From assembly GCA_965208615.1 (NCBI GenBank), contig CBDBPB010000004.1, forward strand, positions 32,001 through 96,000: a stretch of 64,000 nt of DNA, in the 5' to 3' direction. Made by a program: the position numbers and the translations under genes. The DNA comes from Spirochaetota bacterium (lineage in GTDB: Bacteria > Spirochaetota > UBA6919 > CBDBPB01). This document shows positions 7,998 to 61,643 of this stretch, piece by piece (within the stretch, counting starts at the first letter, position 1; every line of letters begins with the position of its first letter). The notes under the pieces are model-generated. The model was not told the origin of the DNA and did not search any database. It worked only from the letters and a program-made list of their open reading frames with translations.

Positions 7998-8475
7998 TAA
8001 AGGGATTCTAATGTACAAATAAGTATAGTAAAAATGACATTTCATGATAATTTAATTATTAAAAAGCGGCAATTATTTTATAACACATAACGTAAAGGCA
8101 AGTGAATTTTAGATTTCTTTATGGAACAGAAAAGTTAAAATATTTATGAAAAAGTTATTTTCTTGTGTCATAGTGTTTATCACTCTATGCTCTTTAAGTG
8201 CTGTTTACTTGAGTTAGAAATTAACACAAAAAATGCTTTTTATGCAAGTAGTCATCACTACGAGAGCTATTAAGAATCACTTACTGAGACTAAGAATTAT
8301 AGACCTTTATTAAGTGTTAAAGGTTTTTCTGTTCTATAAAGGCATAGAGCGAATTCTTCAAATGTCATATATTGACTTTATGTGTAACTTTCTATCCGAA
8401 TTAAAAATAATAGAACTGTTTATAGCTATAAAAATTAGACCGCCTTAAAGCCTTTTACAATAATTTACTAAAAAT
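7998..8475 (+). mobile_element. Degenerate copy 1 of the repeated non-coding element (core plus eroded flanks, ends not recognisable)
   Basis: 8083-8390 aligns with 51686-51991 and 60358-60662; similarity to copy 2 continues to about 8475. Confidence 0.75.
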
Positions 8476-8849
8476 CCCTTTGATAATAAAAAATCTATCA
8501 TACAGAACTACCTTAAAAATAAATATACTTTTATTATAGATCATAACTATGATAACAACTTTTTACTTAATATGAAGTACCACATCTTCCGATATAATAA
8601 AAATCTTTTACAAAGCATATTTAAAACTAATGTTGAAAATTAAAATGTTATTTAATATATTTAAAAATAAACTTATTTTGCTTTATTATATTAATTATAT
8701 ATTTTACCTCCGTAGTAGGTGAAAATATTTTGTTAGAAATATTATATAAAATAATAGCTAAATACTGTTATATATACATCTTTAAACATTTAATAAAAAA
8801 TCTAACTTGCTTTAGTGTTATTATACTTATTGGCAGAAGGGTTTGAGAT

Positions 8850-23900: not shown

Positions 23901-24998
23901 ATGAGGTTGTTAATTCCTTCAATATTAATTTTTTTTGTATTAGCTGTACCTCTTTTTTCAGAGACCCACAAATATAATTATAAGCTTAAGGTTATAGTGG
24001 CTCCTAATTATCGCCTTATTAGTTATTCAATAAGCAAGTATGAGTGGGATGAAAAAGAGAAATTTAAAGTTAAGGAGGATAAGTTTAGTGATAGTCAAAA
24101 GCGTTTAAAGTCATATAATTTTAAATATAAAGATAAAAGGCTAATACTAAAGACTGAGAATGATGGTATTGCTAAACCTATTAAGTTAACACAATACTAT
24201 TATAGGTTTGGGAAGCTTATAAAAAAAGTTGAAGAAGATAAAAAGCTAAATTCTATTTTAGCTATTAATGTTAACCAACACTATTATAAGGATAATATCT
24301 TGAACCACCAAGAAATTATCCCTATTAAAAATGGATTATTAACAAAAAAAACTCTATATACCTATTCACTTCATCAGACTAGAGTGGATCATACAAGAAA
24401 CACTAAAATAGGACTTAAGGAAAGTTTTTCACGAGATTACACTGAAATACACCATTATAAGACTAATGGCAAGCTAAATATAACAGTCAAGTTAGATGGT
24501 ATGGACTCCCCTATTAGTTATACAAAGTATTTTTATGATAATAAATATAGAATTAGCAAGGCAGAAGTTTACAAAGTATCTGAATGGCTTTCAACTTGGG
24601 ATCGTAAAAACTTTTCTTTTCCTCGTAATGTAAGATCCCTTATTAAGATTATTTATTATCATTATTCGGATAGCTATCCAGATATTTCAAAAAGAGTTGT
24701 TATGTCTTCCAAACATCCTAAATATTATATTTATCTTGATAAGTTAAAGCTAAAGCCTAAGAAAAAGATAAAGCCTGTAAAGCTAAAGCCTAAGAAAAAG
24801 ATAAAGCCTGTAAAGCTAAAGCCTAAGAAAAAGATAAAGCCTGTAAAGCTAAAGCCTAAGAAAAAGATAAAGCCTGTAAAGCTAAAGCCTAAGAAAGACA
24901 TAAAGCCTGTAAAGCTAAAGCCTAAGAAAGACATAAAGCCTATCCAAAAAAAAGACTACCGTATAGGAGACTATCAAAAAAGATGGTATGAATATTAG
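23901..24998 (+). CDS. Hypothetical exported basic protein with KLKPKKKIKPV repeats
   Basis: Signal peptide; Lys/Tyr-rich; six 11-aa repeats. Confidence 0.75.
   Translation: MRLLIPSILIFFVLAVPLFSETHKYNYKLKVIVAPNYRLISYSISKYEWDEKEKFKVKEDKFSDSQKRLKSYNFKYKDKRLILKTENDGIAKPIKLTQYYYRFGKLIKKVEEDKKLNSILAINVNQHYYKDNILNHQEIIPIKNGLLTKKTLYTYSLHQTRVDHTRNTKIGLKESFSRDYTEIHHYKTNGKLNITVKLDGMDSPISYTKYFYDNKYRISKAEVYKVSEWLSTWDRKNFSFPRNVRSLIKIIYYHYSDSYPDISKRVVMSSKHPKYYIYLDKLKLKPKKKIKPVKLKPKKKIKPVKLKPKKKIKPVKLKPKKKIKPVKLKPKKDIKPVKLKPKKDIKPIQKKDYRIGDYQKRWYEY
24745..24941 (+). repeat. 33-bp in-frame tandem repeat x6
   Basis: AAGCTAAAGCCTAAGAAAAAGATAAAGCCTGTA; last two units have GAC in place of AAG. Confidence 0.95.
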
Positions 24999-47706: not shown

Positions 47707-48887
47707 GGATAGAACTCTATTATAGAGTTTTCTTTTATGGCATTAATATTATGTGGATGCTTAGCTAAGCCATCGGAGTTTAGGGTGGATAACACATCTC
47801 CACTACCTTTAAAGCTAATTACCTCAATAGAAGACGGTTTATTTATAATACGGCATGGGAAGTACTCTTCACGATCACCTTTTTTAGTACGACTGGATAT
47901 AATGGGTAGATATAGGGTTTTAAGTTCTGTTAGATGCATATACTCTCTAATATACGCTTCAATAAAGAGCTTAAACCCGACTTGGCATGACATATTATTA
48001 CCAGGTAGTCCAAATACAACACCTCCCTGTGGGTTAGTACCAAACCATATAGGCTTACCAGGCTTAACTTTAACCTTATGAAATACCTTTTCTATCTTCA
48101 TTTGTGATAATATATCTGGAATGAGGTCTACATCACCCATGGATACGCCGCCTGATATAATTAGTATATCGGATAGTAGGCCTAGTTCAATGGAATTAGT
48201 CAGTTCCTCTTTGTTATCCTTTACTATACCAGAGAATTGGGGAGTAATATCGTAATTAGCCAATAAACTCCTTATTGTATATGAATTTGAATCCCTAATT
48301 TGATGGCTTAGAGGAATACTATCTGGACTTACTATCTCATCCCCTGTTGATATTATACTAACAGTCGGTTTGGGGTATACTTTTACGTTATGATGCCCTG
48401 TACTAGCCAATAGGCTTATTACAGCAGTATTACAAAGGGTATTCTCTTTTATAACGAGTTTATCCTTAAGACAGTCCTCACCTTCTTTAGCAATGTTTAA
48501 CCCTGATTTTATGTTAGTTAAACTAAATCTGACCTTGCCGTTATGTTCAGTGCTATCCTCTACTTTTATGACTGAGTCAATATCATTAGGTAATGGGGCT
48601 CCAGTCATAACTTTTATACACGATCCAGATGGTATGGGCTGATCAAAGGTTTGTCCAGCTTGCAGATGGCCTATAACGTTAAATTCATTTATTTGCTTTT
48701 CGTTAATATCACTTGCTGAAAGACCGTATCCATCCATAGTAATTCTGTTAAAGGGTGGATAATCTCTATCGGCAAAGATATTCTGAGATATTGCCAGACT
48801 TTTAATATCGGTTATTGATTTTTTTATAGGACGATTTGGTCTTATTGTTGATAGAATTAATTTTTGTGCATCAGAAACGTTTATCAT
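47691..48887 (-). CDS. moeA: Molybdopterin molybdenumtransferase
   Basis: MDGYG, MTGAP, STGDEI, SGGVSMGD, GLPGN; ATG 48887 follows AGGAG. Confidence 0.95.
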   Translation of the reverse strand: MINVSDAQKLILSTIRPNRPIKKSITDIKSLAISQNIFADRDYPPFNRITMDGYGLSASDINEKQINEFNVIGHLQAGQTFDQPIPSGSCIKVMTGAPLPNDIDSVIKVEDSTEHNGKVRFSLTNIKSGLNIAKEGEDCLKDKLVIKENTLCNTAVISLLASTGHHNVKVYPKPTVSIISTGDEIVSPDSIPLSHQIRDSNSYTIRSLLANYDITPQFSGIVKDNKEELTNSIELGLLSDILIISGGVSMGDVDLIPDILSQMKIEKVFHKVKVKPGKPIWFGTNPQGGVVFGLPGNNMSCQVGFKLFIEAYIREYMHLTELKTLYLPIISSRTKKGDREEYFPCRIINKPSSIEVISFKGSGDVLSTLNSDGLAKHPHNINAIKENSIIEFYPWRPL

Positions 48888-48890
48888 AAA

Positions 48891-48990
48891 GGACTCCTTT
48901 TCAAGTATGGAAGGCATACTTATTTATAAGTATACCCTATCGTCTACCATGCCATAGAGTTAATCCTTAGGCATCGCAGATCGGAGTAGT
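48891..48990 (-). promoter_or_regulatory. Moco RNA motif (riboswitch candidate), P3-less form
   Basis: ACUCC/GGAGU P1 covering the RBS; AUGCC-UAAGG...UAU-GGCAU P2; GGUAUACUUA/UAAGUAUGCC P4; UUCCAUACUUGAAAAGGAG 3' end; upstream of moeA. Confidence 0.85.
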
Positions 48991-49015
48991 TATTTTAGTT
49001 ATAAGTTAAAAATTA

Positions 49016-51331: not shown

Positions 51332-51466
51332 TGTTAGTAATTGTTCTAGAGGTGTAGACCAAAAGTATTCTAAGTTAGTTTATCTTTTTAAACTTCCTAA
51401 AGTGCAGTTAGTAATTGTTCTAGAGGTGTAGAGCAAAAGTATTCTAAGTTAGTTTATCTTTTTAAA
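51332..51466 (+). repeat. 74-bp unit x1.8
   Basis: Units start at 51332 and 51406; same sequence as the 59067 array. Confidence 0.93.
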
Positions 51467-52139
51467 GCTTAAAAAACACAGATTATGAAGTTATAGAAAG
51501 TGTTCTGATGAAAGTAAAAAGGTTGTTGACAATGGGGATAAATATAAACGTGTAGGTTTAGACTTTGAGTTAGTGTTGGTAAGCATATTTATTTTTTTGT
51601 TATAATGTTAAGGGGATATTATTTAATAATTTAGTTATCATTTTATGATAGAGTTATGACTAGTCATACAGGGTAAAAAGGCAATACATATAACGTAAAG
51701 GGAAGTGAATTCCAGATTTCTTTATGGAACAGGAAAGTTAAGATATTCATGGAAAAGCTATTTTCTTGTGTCAAGCAGGTTATCCCTTTATGCTCTTTAA
51801 GTGCTGTTTAAATGCCTTAGCAATGAACACAAAATATCACTTTTTATGCAAGTAGTCATCACTACGAGAGCTATTAAGAATCCCTTACTGAGACTAAGAA
51901 TTATAGACCTTTATTAAGTGATAACGGATTTGCCGTTCCATAAAAGCTTAGAGGGGATTATTGGAATATTCTATATTGACTTTATGTGTAATTTTCTATG
52001 TGAATTAAAAATAATAAGATAGTTTATCCCTATAAAAGTTCATAAGCATAGAGCCTCTTTACAATAACATACTAAAACTTTCTCTAACAAAATCGCCCAA
52101 TAAAACCTTTTTTGTTATATTTGCTAAAACGTTTGTTAA
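51332..52139 (+). mobile_element. Copy 2 of the non-coding element (1.8 terminal units, core, right end lacking final CA)
   Basis: Starts TGTTAGTAATTGTTCTAG; 51609-51991 nearly identical to 60281-60662; 52063-52139 matches 60713-60788. Confidence 0.85.
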
Positions 52140-52341
52140 TGGATTTTATTATATATTGGCATAATAATTATATTTAAATACTAACAAAATACTATTTTTT
52201 TATAATTTTATTGCTTTATCATTTTTTTTAACCTTAAAAGTTTATAACTTTTAAATATACTCTAGTTTTTACAACCATATTAATGCTTTTACTTGAATAA
52301 TATAGTTTAAGCATAATAAATACTATATAGGAAATTTAATT

Positions 52342-53582: not shown

Positions 53583-54492
53583 TTGGATAAACCTGCTATA
53601 AAAGAGAAAATACTAAGAGAGTTCTTTCGCTATCTTACCATTGAAAGAGGATTAGCAAAAAATACTATTTTATCCTATAAGAACGACTTAAATAAGTTCT
53701 TTGAATATATAAGTCTTTACAAAATAGACTTTACTAACGTTAATCAACAAAATATTGTTAACTATTTTATTAAGCGACTGGACGAAAAACTCTCCCCTAA
53801 AACAATTTCTAGGATATTATCTAGTATTAGGTTATTTTATAATTTCGCTGTTATTGAGGGTATTATTAAGGTTAACCCTACTATTCATGTTAAAAATCCT
53901 AAAACTATTAATAGCCTACCCAACTTTCTTAGCGTAAAAGAAGTAAATATGCTTATATCTTATCCAGATATAAATAGTTATGCCGGATTTAGGGATAGAA
54001 CAATTATGGAGCTTATATATTCCGGTGGACTTAGGGTAAGTGAACTAGTAACCTTAACTGTTAACGCTATTAATATTGATGAACAGTTTTTAATGTTACT
54101 AGGTAAAGGCTCCAAAGAACGACTAGTTCCTATTGGTAGTATTTGTACCAAACTCATTAAGGAATATTTAAACATAGTACGCCCCATCTTAATGAAAAGG
54201 CAAATTCATCCATTTGTATTTGTTAATGTAAAACACGGTAAACCCATTTCAAGAAAAGGTATTTGGATGCTAATAAAAAATTATTCTCTAAAATGCGGCT
54301 TAAAAAAAGAAATAAGCCCTCACTCTTTAAGGCATTCCTATGCAACGCACTTATTACAAGGAGGTGCAGACTTAAGAACCATTCAAGAACTATTAGGCCA
54401 TAAAAATATAACTACTACTCAAATTTATACTCATTTTGAAAAAAAAAGAATTAAAACGCATACACCAAAACTTTCACCCTTATGAAAATTAA
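53583..54492 (+). CDS. xerD: Tyrosine recombinase XerD (extra A at 54439-54447 shifts the last codons)
   Basis: GLRVSEL, GKGSKER, HSLRHS, LLGH, TTQIY; deleting one A gives ELKRIHQNFHP, the usual XerD tail. Confidence 0.88.
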
Positions 54493-58622: not shown

Positions 58623-59072
58623 GTGACTATGGATACATTAAATAAAAAAGCCAGAACACAGTTTGATAACTTCATTAAAAAGAAAAAACTTAAGGCTACT
58701 AAAACAAGATATAAAATCCTAGAAGAGACCTTATCTATTAATAACCACTTTACCGCTGAAGAAATATTCATCCAAGTTAAAAAAAAGAAAATTAAAGCCT
58801 CCAGAGCAACAATATATCGCACTCTAGACCTATTAGTTGAGTCTAAGTTATTAATAAAACTTAATCTTGGTACCCTCGAGTCTAAATATGAACACATAAT
58901 AGAACATGGACATCATGATCATCTTATTTGTAACAATTGCGAAGAGGTTATTGAGTTCCATAGTCCAGAAATTGAAAAGCTACAAAATATGGTTTGCCAG
59001 GAACATAACTTTAAAGAAGTTGATCATAGTTTAAAGATATTTGGTCTATGTAGTAAGTGTCAGCTATGTTAG
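58623..59072 (+). CDS. fur: Fur/PerR-family regulator; last codon and stop supplied by the element (TGT TAG)
   Basis: SRATIYRTL, HHDHLICNNC, CSKC. Confidence 0.93.
   Translation: MTMDTLNKKARTQFDNFIKKKKLKATKTRYKILEETLSINNHFTAEEIFIQVKKKKIKASRATIYRTLDLLVESKLLIKLNLGTLESKYEHIIEHGHHDHLICNNCEEVIEFHSPEIEKLQNMVCQEHNFKEVDHSLKIFGLCSKCQLC
58821..59066 (+). repeat. 246-bp direct repeat, left copy
   Basis: Identical to 60791-61036 except G59000 / A60970. Confidence 0.96.
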
Positions 59073-60176
59073 TAATTGTTCTAGTGGTGTAGAGCAAAAG
59101 TATTCTAAGTTAGTTTATCTTTTTAAACTTCCTAAAGTGCAGTTAGTAATTGTTCTAGAGGTATAGAGCAAAAGTATTCCAAGTTAGTTTATCTTTTTAA
59201 ACTTCCTAAAGTGCAGTTAGTAATTGTTCTAGTGGTATAGAGCAAAAGTATTCTAAGTTAGTTTATCTTTTTAAACTTCCTAAAGTGCTGTTAGTAATTG
59301 TTCTAGTGGTGTAGAGCAAAAGTATTCTAAGTTAGTTTATTTTTTTAAACTTCCTAAAGTGCAGTTAGTAATTGTTCTAGTGGTGTAGAGCAAAAGTATT
59401 CTAAGTTAGTTTATCTTTTTAAACTTCCTAAAGTGCTGTTAGTAATTGTTCTAGTGGTGTAGAGCAAAAGTATTCTAAGCTAGTTTATCTTTTTAAACTT
59501 CCTAAAGTGCAGTTAGTAATTGTTCTAGTGGTATAGAGCAAAAGTATTCTAAGTTAGTTTATCTTTTTAAACTTCCTAAAGTGCTGTTAGTAATTGTTCT
59601 AGTGGTGTAGAGCAAAAGTATTCTAAGTTAGTTTATTTTTTTAAACTTCCTAAAGTGCAGTTAGTAATTGTTCTAGTGGTGTAGAGCAAAAGTATTCTAA
59701 GTTAGTTTATCTTTTTAAACTTCCTAAAGTGCTGTTAGTAATTGTTCTAGTGGTGTAGAGCAAAAGTATTCTAAGCTAGTTTATCTTTTTAAACTTCCTA
59801 AAGTGCTGTTAGTAATTGTTCTAGTGGTGTAGAGCAAAAGTATTCTAAGTTAGTTTATTTTTTTAAACTTCCTAAAGTGCTGTTAGTAATTGTTCTAGTG
59901 GTGTAGAGCAAAAGTATTCTAAGTTAGTTTATCTTTTTAAACTTCCTAAAGTGCTGTTAGTAATTGTTCTAGTGGTGTAGAGCAAAAGTATTTTAAGTTA
60001 GTTTATCTTTTTAAACTTCCTAAAGTGCAGTTAGTAATTGTTCTAGTGGTGTAGAGCAAAAGTATTTTAAGTTAGTTTATCTTTTTAAACTTCCTAAAGT
60101 GCAGTTAGTAATTGTTCTAGTGGTGTAGAGCAAAAGTATTTTAAGTTAGTTTATCTTTTTAAACTTCCTAAAGTGC
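59067..60176 (+). repeat. 74-bp tandem array x15
   Basis: (T/A)GTTAGTAATTGTTCTAGTGGTGTAGAGCAAAAGTATTCTAAGTTAGTTTATCTTTTTAAACTTCCTAAAGTGC; 1110 bp; no spacers. Confidence 0.97.
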
Positions 60177-60357
60177 AGATAAAATCTATTTAGTAATTGT
60201 GTTATAATAATTTTTTATCTAAAAGCTATAGTAATTAGTAACTGGGGAGGATGGCGTTTTTTTTTTGATATTAGGTTATTTAAAGGGATATTATTTAATA
60301 ATTTAGTTATCATTTTATGATAGAGTTATGACTAGTCATACAAGGTAAAAAGGCAAG

Positions 60358-60660
60358 ACATATAACGTAAAGGGAAGTGAATTCCAGATTTCTTTATGGA
60401 ACAGGAAAGTTAAGATATTCATGAAAAAGTTATTTTCTTGTGTCAAGCAGGTTATCCTTTTATGCTCTTTAAGTGCTGTTTAATGCCTTAGCAATGAACA
60501 CAAAATATCACTTTTTATGCAAGTAGTCATCACTACGAGAGCTATTAAGAATCCCTTACTGAGACTAAGAATTATAGACCTTTATTAAATGATAACGGAT
60601 TTGCTGTTCCATAAAGGCTTAGAGGGGATTATTGGAATATTCTATATTGACTTTATATGT
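60358..60660 (+). ncRNA. Candidate structured RNA core of the element (also 8083-8385 and 51686-51989)
   Basis: Nested long-range helices with compensatory and wobble changes among three copies. Confidence 0.55.
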
Positions 60661-60790
60661 AAAACTTCAAAAAGTATACCTAATCCTATATGAGTAAATA
60701 ACAAACAAAAAAATAATCTACTAAAACCTTCACTAACAAAATCGCCCAATAAAACCTTTTTTGTTATATTTTCTAAAACGTTTGTTAACA

Positions 60791-61042
60791 ACTCTAGACC
60801 TATTAGTTGAGTCTAAGTTATTAATAAAACTTAATCTTGGTACCCTCGAGTCTAAATATGAACACATAATAGAACATGGACATCATGATCATCTTATTTG
60901 TAACAATTGCGAAGAGGTTATTGAGTTCCATAGTCCAGAAATTGAAAAGCTACAAAATATGGTTTGCCAAGAACATAACTTTAAAGAAGTTGATCATAGT
61001 TTAAAGATATTTGGTCTATGTAGTAAGTGTCAGCTAAGCTAA
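60791..61042 (+). pseudogene. fur: Duplicated 3' part of fur (right direct repeat 60791-61036 plus probable original end KCQLS*)
   Basis: 245/246 identity to 58821-59066; lacks most of the DNA-binding domain. Confidence 0.9.
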
Positions 61043-61181
61043 CTTATTAAAACTTAATAATATAAAATTAAATAAGTATATAAAAGCTTAAATAATTATT
61101 AAACAATAGTTTTTATTGCATTACTATATAATTTTAACTATCTTTTTAAAATAAAATACTCTATTCTTAGGAGATGATAAA

Positions 61182-61643
61182 ATGCAAACTAATGCAAGTG
61201 AGGTTTTTCAATTCGCAATAAAAATAGAGGAAAACGGAGAAAAGTTTTATAGAGAACTAGCAAATAAAATTAATAATAAATTCATTAAAAACATCTTTAA
61301 TATATTAGCCGATGAAGAGGTTGTCCACGCTAAAATATTTAGCGATATGTTATCTCAATTTGAATCGTATACCCCAACAGATTACTTTCCAGAAGAATAC
61401 TTTGTCTACTTAAAAACACTTGTAGATAATGAAATATTCAACACTAATAAACTCGATGAAAAAATAGATAGTATAACAACTGGCGAAGAGGCAATAAAAC
61501 TGGCAATTAGAAAAGAACTCGACTCAATACTATATTACCAGGAAATGAAAAAAATGCTCCCCCCTGATCAGTACTCCCTAATAGATAAAATACTAGAACA
61601 AGAACGAATACACTTCATGAGGTTAACCAATATAGAAGTATGA
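61182..61643 (+). CDS. Ferritin-like / rubrerythrin-family protein
   Basis: AIKIEENGEKFY, EEVVH, ELDSILYY, QERIH; AGGAG RBS. Confidence 0.88.
   Translation: MQTNASEVFQFAIKIEENGEKFYRELANKINNKFIKNIFNILADEEVVHAKIFSDMLSQFESYTPTDYFPEEYFVYLKTLVDNEIFNTNKLDEKIDSITTGEEAIKLAIRKELDSILYYQEMKKMLPPDQYSLIDKILEQERIHFMRLTNIEV

What the first reader, a model, noticed from the sequence alone, without database searches (positions are those of the whole stretch)
58821..61036. Transposase-free element with TGT...ACA ends and a 246-bp target duplication that leaves fur intact
Seen: 59067-60790 begins TGTTA, ends TAACA and is bounded exactly by two 246-bp copies of the fur 3' end (one synonymous mismatch). Its first bases (TGT TAG) complete fur as KCQLC* in place of KCQLS*. 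Layout: 15 x 74-bp terminal units, variable segment, palindromes, structured core, variable segment, right end. Two more copies lie in this 64 kb and none has a long ORF. Known: most IS duplicate 2-14 bp, while IS1549 and IS1634 make long variable duplications; TG...CA ends typify DDE elements. Inference: a high-copy non-autonomous element carrying a structured RNA and an amplifiable end, a combination I do not recognise. Best candidate for an undescribed system.
Basis: partly seen in the sequence, partly recalled or inferred. Interest (0 to 1): 0.88.

Follow-up and report, generated by a model that had tools for sequence, protein, structure and literature searches.

The report
Transposase-less repeat element inserted at fur
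A 1.7-kb non-coding mobile-looking repeat, one of about forty in this genome, sits at the very end of the fur gene between two copies of the gene's last 246 bases; the family is new and odd in detail, but of a known general kind.

Summary
Bases 59067-60790 are a 1724-bp non-coding element that starts TGTTA and ends TAACA. It is bounded exactly by two 246-bp copies of the fur 3' end, which differ by one synonymous base, and fur stays open (…KCQLC*). Its left part is 15 tandem 74-bp units.

The element belongs to a lineage-specific family with about 40 copies of a ~400-nt core. The ends are imperfect ~20-bp terminal inverted repeats. I found the family in no other collection searched.

- The 246-bp duplication is unique to the fur copy. 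Eighteen other end-paired intervals show no consistent target duplication.
- A structured RNA is not supported. Covariation equals the shuffled control and the fold energy is unremarkable.
- The amplifiable left side is real: 18 of 41 cores carry a tandem array just upstream, with periods of 58-318 bp.
- None of eleven transposase or recombinase Pfam families tested has a match in the genome. Only two Xer-type tyrosine recombinases were found.

My best reading is a MITE-like, modular non-autonomous element. Its insertion at fur carries a one-off long flanking duplication, kept because it preserves fur. The nearest precedents are the BrickBuilt and BOX elements, and IS1634/IS1549 for long duplications. 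Interest is moderate.

The parts
58623..59072 (+). fur-family regulator ORF (149 aa from GTG). Its last codon and stop (TGT TAG) come from the element.
   Evidence: ORF list. Pfam FUR E 1.3e-31. No NCBIfam equivalog cut-off is reached, with Fur/PerR-like best hits.
58821..59066 (.). 246-bp direct repeat, copy 1 (fur codons 67-148)
   Evidence: 246 nt, 99.59%
59067..60790 (+). The element, 1724 bp, non-coding
   Evidence: Both ends are defined by comparison with other copies.
59067..59089 (+). Left terminal inverted repeat (TGTTAGTAATTGTTCTAGTGGTG), repeated at the head of each 74-bp unit
   Evidence: 65 matches with up to 3 mismatches in the genome, reversed-pattern control 0
59068..60178 (.). 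15.0 tandem units of 74 bp
60179..60269 (+). Middle segment. It holds an inverted copy of the left terminal repeat at about 60220-60243, then a G-rich stretch and a T-run. With one 74-bp unit it equals the free-standing ~130-141-bp small elements found elsewhere.
   Evidence: for example C4:374061-374201, 141 bp
60270..60665 (+). Conserved non-coding core. The most conserved part is about 60437-60557.
   Evidence: Alignments of 40-43 copies. Module identities. Variation 5.4% in the centre against about 12.7% at the sides.
60771..60790 (-). Right terminal repeat, variant A (...CTAAAACGTTTGTTAACA), an imperfect inverted copy of the left end
   Evidence: Sharp common end in 12 copies. A variant B end in 10 of 13 other copies matches the left end better.
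60791..61036 (.). 246-bp direct repeat, copy 2, continuous with the original fur stop codon and the downstream DNA
60761..61042 (+). Hybrid 93-aa ORF. A TTG start inside the element's right end reads into the fur C-terminal 82 codons. Expression is unknown.
   Evidence: Pfam FUR profile positions 49-120.
61182..61643 (+). Rubrerythrin-family gene, now 2.1 kb from the fur stop codon
   Evidence: PF02915, E 1.2e-15
51332..52141 (+). Second, complete family member (810 bp, 1.8 units of 74 bp, a different middle segment, right end variant A)
8083..8490 (+). Third family member. It is 5'-truncated (core from about position 100) and has a decayed variant-B right end.
   Evidence: The right end was read by eye.

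Best explanation
The feature is one copy of a lineage-specific family of non-autonomous, MITE-like modular elements. Each has imperfect ~20-23-bp terminal inverted repeats (TGTTA...TAACA) and a ~400-nt conserved non-coding core. The modules between ends and core vary. The stretch just upstream of the core readily grows into tandem arrays.

Shown: the family exists, its ends are sharp, it codes for nothing, and other copies have no consistent target duplication.

Inferred: the copy at fur arose by an end-joining (transposition-type) event. Its two ends were joined to target positions 246 bp apart instead of at one point, and repair synthesis duplicated the interval. This rare product survived because it rebuilds a full-length fur, with only the last residue changed from S to C. 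The 74-bp array then grew by unequal exchange or slippage.

The enzyme that moves the family is not encoded next to any copy. It was not found in this assembly and is either lost, of a kind I did not test, or resident elsewhere.
For: Family and ends:
- 43 core matches of at least 250 bp lie across 6 of 9 contigs.
- 12 copies end at the same ...GTTAACA. 10 of 13 others end at variant B, a close inverted copy of the left end.
- The terminal repeat pattern matches 65 times in this genome, against 0 for its reversed control and 0 in 12 relatives.

Insertion-type junctions at fur: both element termini abut the 246-bp copies to the base. There is no microhomology between the termini and the sequences they replace (read). 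This argues against slippage.

Non-coding.

Recurrent arrays: 18 of 41 cores have one upstream, with many different periods and mostly 93-100% unit identity.

Junction in other data: the right end-to-repeat junction and a branch at the repeat start are present in run X1 contigs at single-copy depth.

Precedent for long, variable duplications: IS1549 and IS1634 give 8-514 bp with no mechanistic model proposed (PMC2266710, passage read).
Against: - The duplication is a single case, so no mechanism can be inferred from a pattern.
- The other 18 end-paired intervals lack target duplications. This is unusual for elements with terminal inverted repeats, so the usual mechanism may make no staggered cut at all.
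- No match to DDE_Tnp_1, rve, TnpB zinc-ribbon, IS110, RVT_1, Resolvase, Y1_Tnp, Transposase_mut, DDE_3 or ISL3 in a 99.4%-complete assembly. The Y2_Tnp search was uninformative because its control was silent too.
- Some copy number may come from segmental duplication with paralogous lipoprotein genes rather than from transposition.
- The X1 contig does not break at 61036/61037 as a duplicated segment predicts.
Confidence: 0.5

Rival explanations
1. The duplication was made by homologous recombination, not by the insertion chemistry. For example, a circle holding the element plus a 246-bp fur segment integrated into an intact fur by a single crossover. Such a circle could be excised from a chromosome with element copies on both sides of that segment. 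A multi-step unequal exchange is another route.
For: A single crossover duplicates exactly the shared segment on both sides of the insert, which is the layout seen. Family copies are mosaics: two middle variants and two right-end variants occur in different combinations. So recombination between copies is frequent. Other copies have no target duplication.
Against: It needs an earlier state with two element copies in fur, of which there is no trace. No other element carries a captured fragment of a distant gene in its 150-bp flanks, in 16 elements tested. Both junctions sit exactly at the element termini, as in a direct insertion.
Confidence: 0.2
2. The family is mainly a host regulatory or RNA module rather than a selfish element. 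The core would be a functional non-coding RNA or protein-binding platform, and the upstream arrays would be stacked promoters or binding sites. Copies would spread partly with the surface-lipoprotein genes they flank.
For: Arrays lie just upstream of the core in 18 of 41 copies. In many copies the units carry a conserved TTGACA-containing motif, and TGTTATAAT lies close to the core start in some (read by eye). By a crude nearest-ORF call, the gene on the left reads away from the element in 29 of 43 copies. By eye, about a dozen of those start with a lipoprotein-type signal. The core centre varies less (5.4%) than its sides.
Against: There is no covariation, no Rfam family, and fold energies are near shuffled values. 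Promoter-like sites are no more frequent than in shuffles, 9 against 6.3±2.8 and 6 against 6.9±2.3. The core is not much better conserved than the ends: 86-92% against 81.5% and 91.7%. The fur copy lacks the TTGACA motif.
Confidence: 0.15
3. The 246-bp duplication is an assembly artefact at a repeat boundary.
For: The element is multi-copy and carries a 1.1-kb tandem array, which is hard to assemble. The X1 contig passes 61036/61037 without the expected branch, and no contig with the copy-1 base at the mismatch position was listed.
Against: The two copies differ by one base. In X1, a contig spans the right end-to-repeat junction at depth 8, equal to the chromosomal contig depth of 8.71. That contig begins exactly at 60791 with a k-1 overlap. 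The 60787-60824 bin holds about 10 more depth than these two contigs account for, as a second incoming path would give. Bubble popping and removal of weak links beside a high-depth repeat could explain the missing branch; this is my inference.
Confidence: 0.05
4. The element is a deletion derivative of an IS1634/IS1549-type insertion sequence, and long variable duplications are its normal product.
For: Those elements make duplications of 8-514 bp (PMC2266710), and 246 bp falls in that range.
Against: Only 1 of 19 end-paired intervals has a long duplication. There is no DDE_Tnp_1 match in the genome, while the control rang in 9 of 14 genomes. I did not compare the terminal repeats with ISfinder entries, since no such library was on hand.
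Confidence: 0.05

Closest known systems
MITEs (miniature inverted-repeat transposable elements) of bacteria
   Same: Terminal inverted repeats, no coding capacity, many dispersed copies that are mostly intergenic, and sharp common ends.
   Different: There is no consistent target-site duplication. Copies are large (675-1834 bp). No parent insertion sequence with the same ends was found in the genome or in any collection searched.
BrickBuilt MITE of Porphyromonas gingivalis (PMC4596501, abstract read)
   Same: A species-restricted MITE-like element with small inverted-repeat ends and an internal tandem array. It is present in tens of copies.
   Different: BrickBuilt's repeat is a fixed 23-nt unit between a leader and a tail. 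Here the unit length differs from copy to copy (58-318 bp), often includes the terminal repeat itself, and lies next to a ~400-nt conserved core.
BOX elements of Streptococcus pneumoniae
   Same: Modular non-autonomous repeats in which one module varies in tandem copy number, with no known transposase.
   Different: BOX elements are much shorter and have no long conserved core. I did no sequence comparison.
IS1634 / IS1549 (IS1634 family; PMC2266710, passages read)
   Same: Insertions flanked by long direct repeats of variable length (8-514 bp).
   Different: Those are autonomous elements with a DDE transposase, and long repeats are their rule. Here there is no transposase and one long repeat among 19 intervals.
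Tn7 / Mu / Tn552-type elements with TGT...ACA ends (recalled)
   Same: Terminal TGT...ACA and repeated end sequences.
   Different: Those make 5-bp duplications and need an rve-type transposase. No rve match was found, and no 5-bp duplications were seen.

Membership tests
MITE / non-autonomous TIR element | Terminal inverted repeats | tested here: met
   The left end TGTTA(C/G)TAATTGTTCTAGT.GTG and right-end variant B (reverse complement TGTTATCAAATGTTCTAGTAGG) match over about 22 nt. Variant A matches about 14 of 19.
MITE / non-autonomous TIR element | No coding capacity | tested here: met
MITE / non-autonomous TIR element | Target-site duplication of fixed short length | tested here: not met
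   19 intervals gave 0 bp in 13, 1 bp in 2, 2 bp in 1 and 3 bp in 3. The permuted expectation is 14.2, 3.1, 0.7 and 0.7.
MITE / non-autonomous TIR element | A related autonomous element with the same ends | tested here: not met
   No long ORF lies between end pairs. Ten informative transposase or recombinase Pfam searches of the genome were empty. Nothing was found in plasmids, phages, viral contigs, metagenome contigs or genome contigs.
IS1634 family | IS4-like DDE transposase | tested here: not met
   PF01609 has no match in the genome.
IS1634 family | Long variable direct repeats at most insertions | tested here: not met
   1 of 19
IS200/IS605 derivatives (PATE) or TnpB/omega-RNA elements | Y1 transposase or TnpB present; ends are hairpins, not inverted repeats | tested here: not met
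   PF01797 and PF07282 have no match. The ends are inverted repeats.
IS110 / bridge-RNA elements | DEDD transposase next to the RNA | tested here: not met
   PF01548 has no match.
Diversity-generating retroelement (template/variable repeat at a gene's 3' end) | Reverse transcriptase nearby; many adenine-specific differences between the repeats | tested here: not met
   RVT_1 has no match in the genome. There is only one difference in 246 nt.
Xer-dependent integrated element (IMEX) | Integration at dif, with ends made of dif-like sites | tested here: inconclusive
   XerD is present at window 53583-54485 (337 bits against a cut-off of 329.6), and a second tyrosine recombinase lies on C8. Copies are dispersed. 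By eye the ends do not form an 11-6-11 dif-like site. The genome's own dif site was not located.
Known structured RNA family (Rfam 15) | Match to a covariance model | tested here: not met
   There is none at gathering score. At E up to 10 there is only a chance hit in the array, at 18.4 bits against a gathering score of 54.

The most novel reading that the evidence does not exclude
The family moves by a mechanism that normally leaves no target duplication and needs no element-encoded protein. It would use a host enzyme, or its own conserved ~400-nt core acting as an RNA or as structured DNA. The terminus-linked tandem arrays, the head-to-tail end junction at C7:82336-82343 and the 246-bp duplication at fur would then be by-products of uncoordinated, replicative end joining. 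That would be an undescribed class of bacterial mobile element.
Probability: 0.1. Interest if true: 0.85.

Novelty: new variant of a known kind. Interest (0 to 1): 0.45.

Why it matters
The element shows how a protein-less repeat can populate a small genome (about 40 copies in 2.46 Mb) that appears to encode no transposase. It also shows how an insertion into an important regulator can be tolerated through a long flanking duplication.

Three features are not explained by textbook transposition, and each is testable with long reads, RNA-seq and strain comparison:
- inverted-repeat ends without target duplications;
- the recurrent growth of tandem arrays next to the core;
- the single 246-bp duplication.

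For annotation, the finding warns that fur here is intact. It also shows that a second fur-derived ORF and a separated rubrerythrin gene are products of the insertion.

Tried and rejected
Relatives and an empty fur site: a Fur-protein scan of genome contigs found no relative. The genome is the only member of its family among the species representatives. The core was not found in 40 relatives or in 400 genomes of the phylum, where only 2 candidates per genome were scored. So no empty site could be examined.

A paralogous 'empty' site for the copy at C1:270992-271963 was too diverged to resolve the junction.

Exact-word scans: the 24-mer of the core gave 0 hits in genome, viral and metagenome contigs. 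An 18-mer gave 5 metagenome hits, all in 53-62% GC contigs with no extended similarity, so they are chance. The terminal-repeat pattern gave 0 hits in viral contigs. BLASTN against plasmids and phages found no match.

RNA evidence: no RNA holder was listed, so expression could not be examined.

Runs X2 and X3: X2 had nothing laid. X3 had three low-depth contigs on multi-copy parts only. Neither says anything about the fur locus.

Promoter and terminator scans showed no excess over shuffles and no terminator.

I considered and dropped a coding core, a CRISPR-like array (the 'spacers' are identical), a DGR, a dif-like end, and Fur-box likeness of the ends (by eye only, weak).

An earlier idea that arrays always start at the left terminus was wrong. 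At least three arrays begin with a partial unit that lacks the terminal repeat (C1:41787, C7:333872, C4:173176).

Supplementary files of the two papers were not consulted and might hold end sequences of IS1634-family or BrickBuilt elements.
Full report
THE OBSERVATION

- A direct repeat lies at 58821-59071 / 60791-61041 with spacing 1970. The identical-in-register part is 246 nt with one mismatch.
- Between the two copies lie 1724 bases that start TGTTAG and end GTTAACA.
- The first 1111 of these are 15.0 tandem units of 74 bp at 97% identity.
- The fur-family ORF 58623..59072 runs through copy 1 and ends ...KCQLC* on the element's TGT TAG. Copy 2 ends ...KCQLS* on the original stop.
- Pfam FUR matches residues 19-137 of 147 at E 1.3e-31. 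Only the last residue differs, so fur is very probably functional.
- The single mismatch (CAG/CAA) is synonymous.
- The duplication spans exactly codons 67-148.

THE FAMILY

BLAST of the right-hand 612 bases against the laid genome (2.46 Mb, 9 contigs, about 31% GC) gives 82 matches. Of these, 43 are at least 250 bp, on 6 of 9 contigs. Two lie in the window: a complete 810-bp copy at 51332-52141 and a 5'-truncated one from about 8083.

The ends are sharp.
- Twelve copies stop at the same ...GCTAAAACGTTTGTTAACA.
- Among 13 copies lacking that end, 10 carry a second variant...CCTACTAGAACATTTGATAACA. This is a close inverted copy of the left end TGTTACTAATTGTTCTAGTAGTG.
- So the elements are bounded by imperfect terminal inverted repeats of about 20-23 bp.
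- A 23-nt consensus of the repeat matches 65 times with up to 3 mismatches in this genome. Its reversed control matches 0 times, and there are 0 matches in 12 relatives.

In a fuzzy-motif search, both ends were recognised at 16 of 41 core copies, giving lengths of 675-1834 bp. The rest have decayed or different ends.

The layout is modular.
- The fur copy's middle segment contains an inverted copy of the left terminal repeat.
- One 74-bp unit plus that middle segment equals the small ~130-141-bp elements that also occur alone.
- A second middle variant and the two right-end variants occur in different combinations. The copies are therefore mosaics.

TARGET DUPLICATIONS

- Of 10 full copies first tested with 600-bp flanks, only the fur copy has a flank duplication.
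- For 19 intervals bounded by paired ends, the identity between the last bases of the left flank and the first bases of the right flank was 0 bp in 13, 1 bp in 2, 2 bp in 1 and 3 bp in 3. After permuting flanks the expectation is 14.2, 3.1, 0.7 and 0.7. The 19 include one 141-bp small element and one 8-bp artefact where two ends abut. The fur copy scores 1 bp in this test because its duplication is long, not short.
- A scan of the 500-bp outside flanks of 133 terminus-like sites against 5 kb inside returned the fur duplication, the arrays themselves and paralogous gene families. I saw no second case, but the output was cut.
- The base before TGTTA is T in 47 of 86 unique termini. Otherwise the flanks show no target motif.

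So the family normally inserts without a visible duplication, and the 246-bp repeat is a one-off.

THE ENZYME

The genome is 99.4% complete.
- It has no match to DDE_Tnp_1, rve, the TnpB zinc-ribbon domain, IS110 DEDD, RVT_1, Resolvase, Y1_Tnp, Transposase_mut, DDE_3 or ISL3. Positive controls rang in 3 to 12 of 14 reference genomes.
- The Y2_Tnp search was uninformative because its control was silent.
- Phage_integrase matches two genes of 306 and 308 aa. The one in the window (53583-54485) passes the XerD equivalog cut-off.
- Repeated regions of the genome other than this family are paralogous surface-lipoprotein, ankyrin-repeat and membrane-protein genes, not transposases.

THE CORE

It is not coding.
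- The longest stop-free stretch in 40 aligned copies is 69 aa in one copy and at most 55 aa in the rest. None is conserved.
- Variation shows no 3-nt periodicity: 0.100, 0.108 and 0.100 by phase.

It is not a known RNA. Rfam gives nothing at gathering score. At E up to 10 the only hit is a chance one in the array.

Folding is unremarkable. The single-sequence z-score is -0.5 on the + strand and -1.76 on the - strand.

A 22-sequence alignment gives a consensus fold of -30.2 kcal/mol, with a covariation term of only -2.4. Two of 71 pairs change on both sides. On that structure the covariation score is 0.108 against 0.106 in shuffles, and 159 of 500 shuffles are at least as high. The high percentage of paired cells (98.3%) is matched by the shuffles (98.2%).

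My own column-shuffle control does give a lower energy for the real alignment. That control destroys local sequence, so it is not evidence for an RNA.

Module by module, mean pairwise identity is 86-92% for three core thirds, 81.5% for the left unit and 91.7% for right end A. The core centre is somewhat better kept (5.4% variable columns against about 12.7%), but not strikingly. A structured RNA is therefore possible but unsupported.

THE ARRAYS

- Genome-wide, 18 of 41 cores have a tandem array directly upstream.
- Periods are 58, 74 (twice), 110, 144-146 (four times), 156, 158, 165, 169, 201, 203, 208, 222, 263 and 318. Copy numbers run from 2 to 15 and unit identity is mostly 93-100%.
- Two cores have arrays downstream.
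- Many arrays start at the left terminus, so that the terminal repeat itself is multiplied. At least three begin with a partial unit without it.
Whether it reflects a mechanism (end-linked exchange) or selection (stacked promoters or binding sites) is open.
- Longer units share a TTGACA-containing motif. However, the promoter scan shows no excess over shuffles, and the fur copy lacks that motif.

IS THE DUPLICATION REAL?

One public run (X1, kept as contigs, possibly the source sample) holds 0.90 of the sampled words. Laid on 60179-61300, it shows the following.
- A 61-nt contig at depth 8 spans 60760-60820, with 31 and 30 letters on the two sides of the junction.
- A 6332-nt contig at depth 8.71 begins exactly at 60791, overlaps the first contig by 30 nt, and matches without a difference.
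- The 60787-60824 bin holds about 10 more depth than these two contigs explain.

This is what a graph branch at the start of a twice-present segment looks like. The same contig runs through 61036/61037 without the expected second branch, and no contig with the copy-1 base was listed. Graph simplification next to a very deep repeat could do this, but that is my inference. I put an assembly artefact at about 5%.

MECHANISM

Both termini are joined to the two 246-bp copies to the base, without microhomology. This points to the element's own end-joining reaction rather than to slippage.

The simplest single event is that the two ends were joined 246 bp apart and the gap was filled. Selection then explains why this product is seen. 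Any simple insertion at 58820/58821 would have destroyed fur. The duplication instead restores all of it, up to the last residue.

Long variable duplications are on record for IS1549 and IS1634 (8-514 bp, with no model proposed; PMC2266710, passages read). Those are autonomous DDE elements, though, and long repeats are their rule.

A recombinational origin gives the same layout and cannot be excluded. It would need single-crossover integration of a circle carrying the element and a fur fragment, and so an unseen precursor. With one case, I put the insertion-linked reading at about 0.5 and recombination at about 0.2.

COMPARISON AND NOVELTY

By its traits this is a MITE-like non-autonomous element. 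It fails two MITE criteria tested here, a fixed short target duplication and a known parent.
- A MITE with an internal minisatellite, tens of intergenic copies and promoter activity is described in Porphyromonas gingivalis (BrickBuilt, PMC4596501, abstract read; found through the search).
- Pneumococcal BOX elements, with a variable number of one module, are a second analogue. This is recalled, not checked.

What is new here is the copy-specific unit length of the arrays, the multiplication of the terminal repeat, the long conserved core, the absence of target duplications and of any transposase, and the single long duplication that rescues a gene. I file it as a new variant of a known kind, of moderate interest.

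The boldest reading still open, at about 10%, is a protein-less element moved by a host enzyme or by its own core. Under that reading the arrays, the abutted ends and the 246-bp repeat are by-products of uncoordinated replicative end joining.

Noticed in passing
window 48879-48998 (-): Molybdenum/tungsten cofactor riboswitch aptamer (RF01055), 70.7 bits against a gathering score of 36.
   Followed up: no
window 53583-54485 (+): XerD-type tyrosine recombinase (TIGR02225, 337 bits, cut-off 329.6), 1.4 kb downstream of the window's second element copy. It is one of only two Phage_integrase matches in the genome.
   Followed up: partly
window 60761-61042 (+): A 93-aa hybrid ORF starts at a TTG inside the element's right end. 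It continues into the duplicated fur C-terminal 82 codons, which cover the dimerisation and metal-binding part without the DNA-binding part. If expressed it could interfere with Fur. There is no evidence either way.
   Followed up: partly
genome C7:82321-82360 (outside the window): A variant-B right end and a left end of the same orientation abut head to tail and overlap on TGTTAC. Similar near-abutted ends lie at C1:11697 and C7:335560-335600.
   Followed up: partly
genome C4:586562-589648, C8:87569-89587, C2:78054-80679, C2:153539-154408 and others (outside the window): A large paralogous family of lipoproteins built of ~25-aa repeats (GGGMYNNNSSPTLT.VTF..N.A), often next to the left end of an element copy. 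Several copies are fragmented.
   Followed up: no
window 24745-24941: Six perfect-to-98% tandem copies of a 33-bp unit. I did not examine them.
   Followed up: no
genome C1:94939-97578 and C7:28013-29040 (outside the window): An 879-aa ankyrin-repeat protein whose gene holds 24 repeats of 99 bp, and a locus of short tandem repeats that is open in two frames.
   Followed up: no
whole genome: Copies are unevenly spread. By core matches of at least 250 bp there are 19 on C4 (605 kb) and none on C5, C6 or C9 (451 kb together). The cause is unknown.
   Followed up: no
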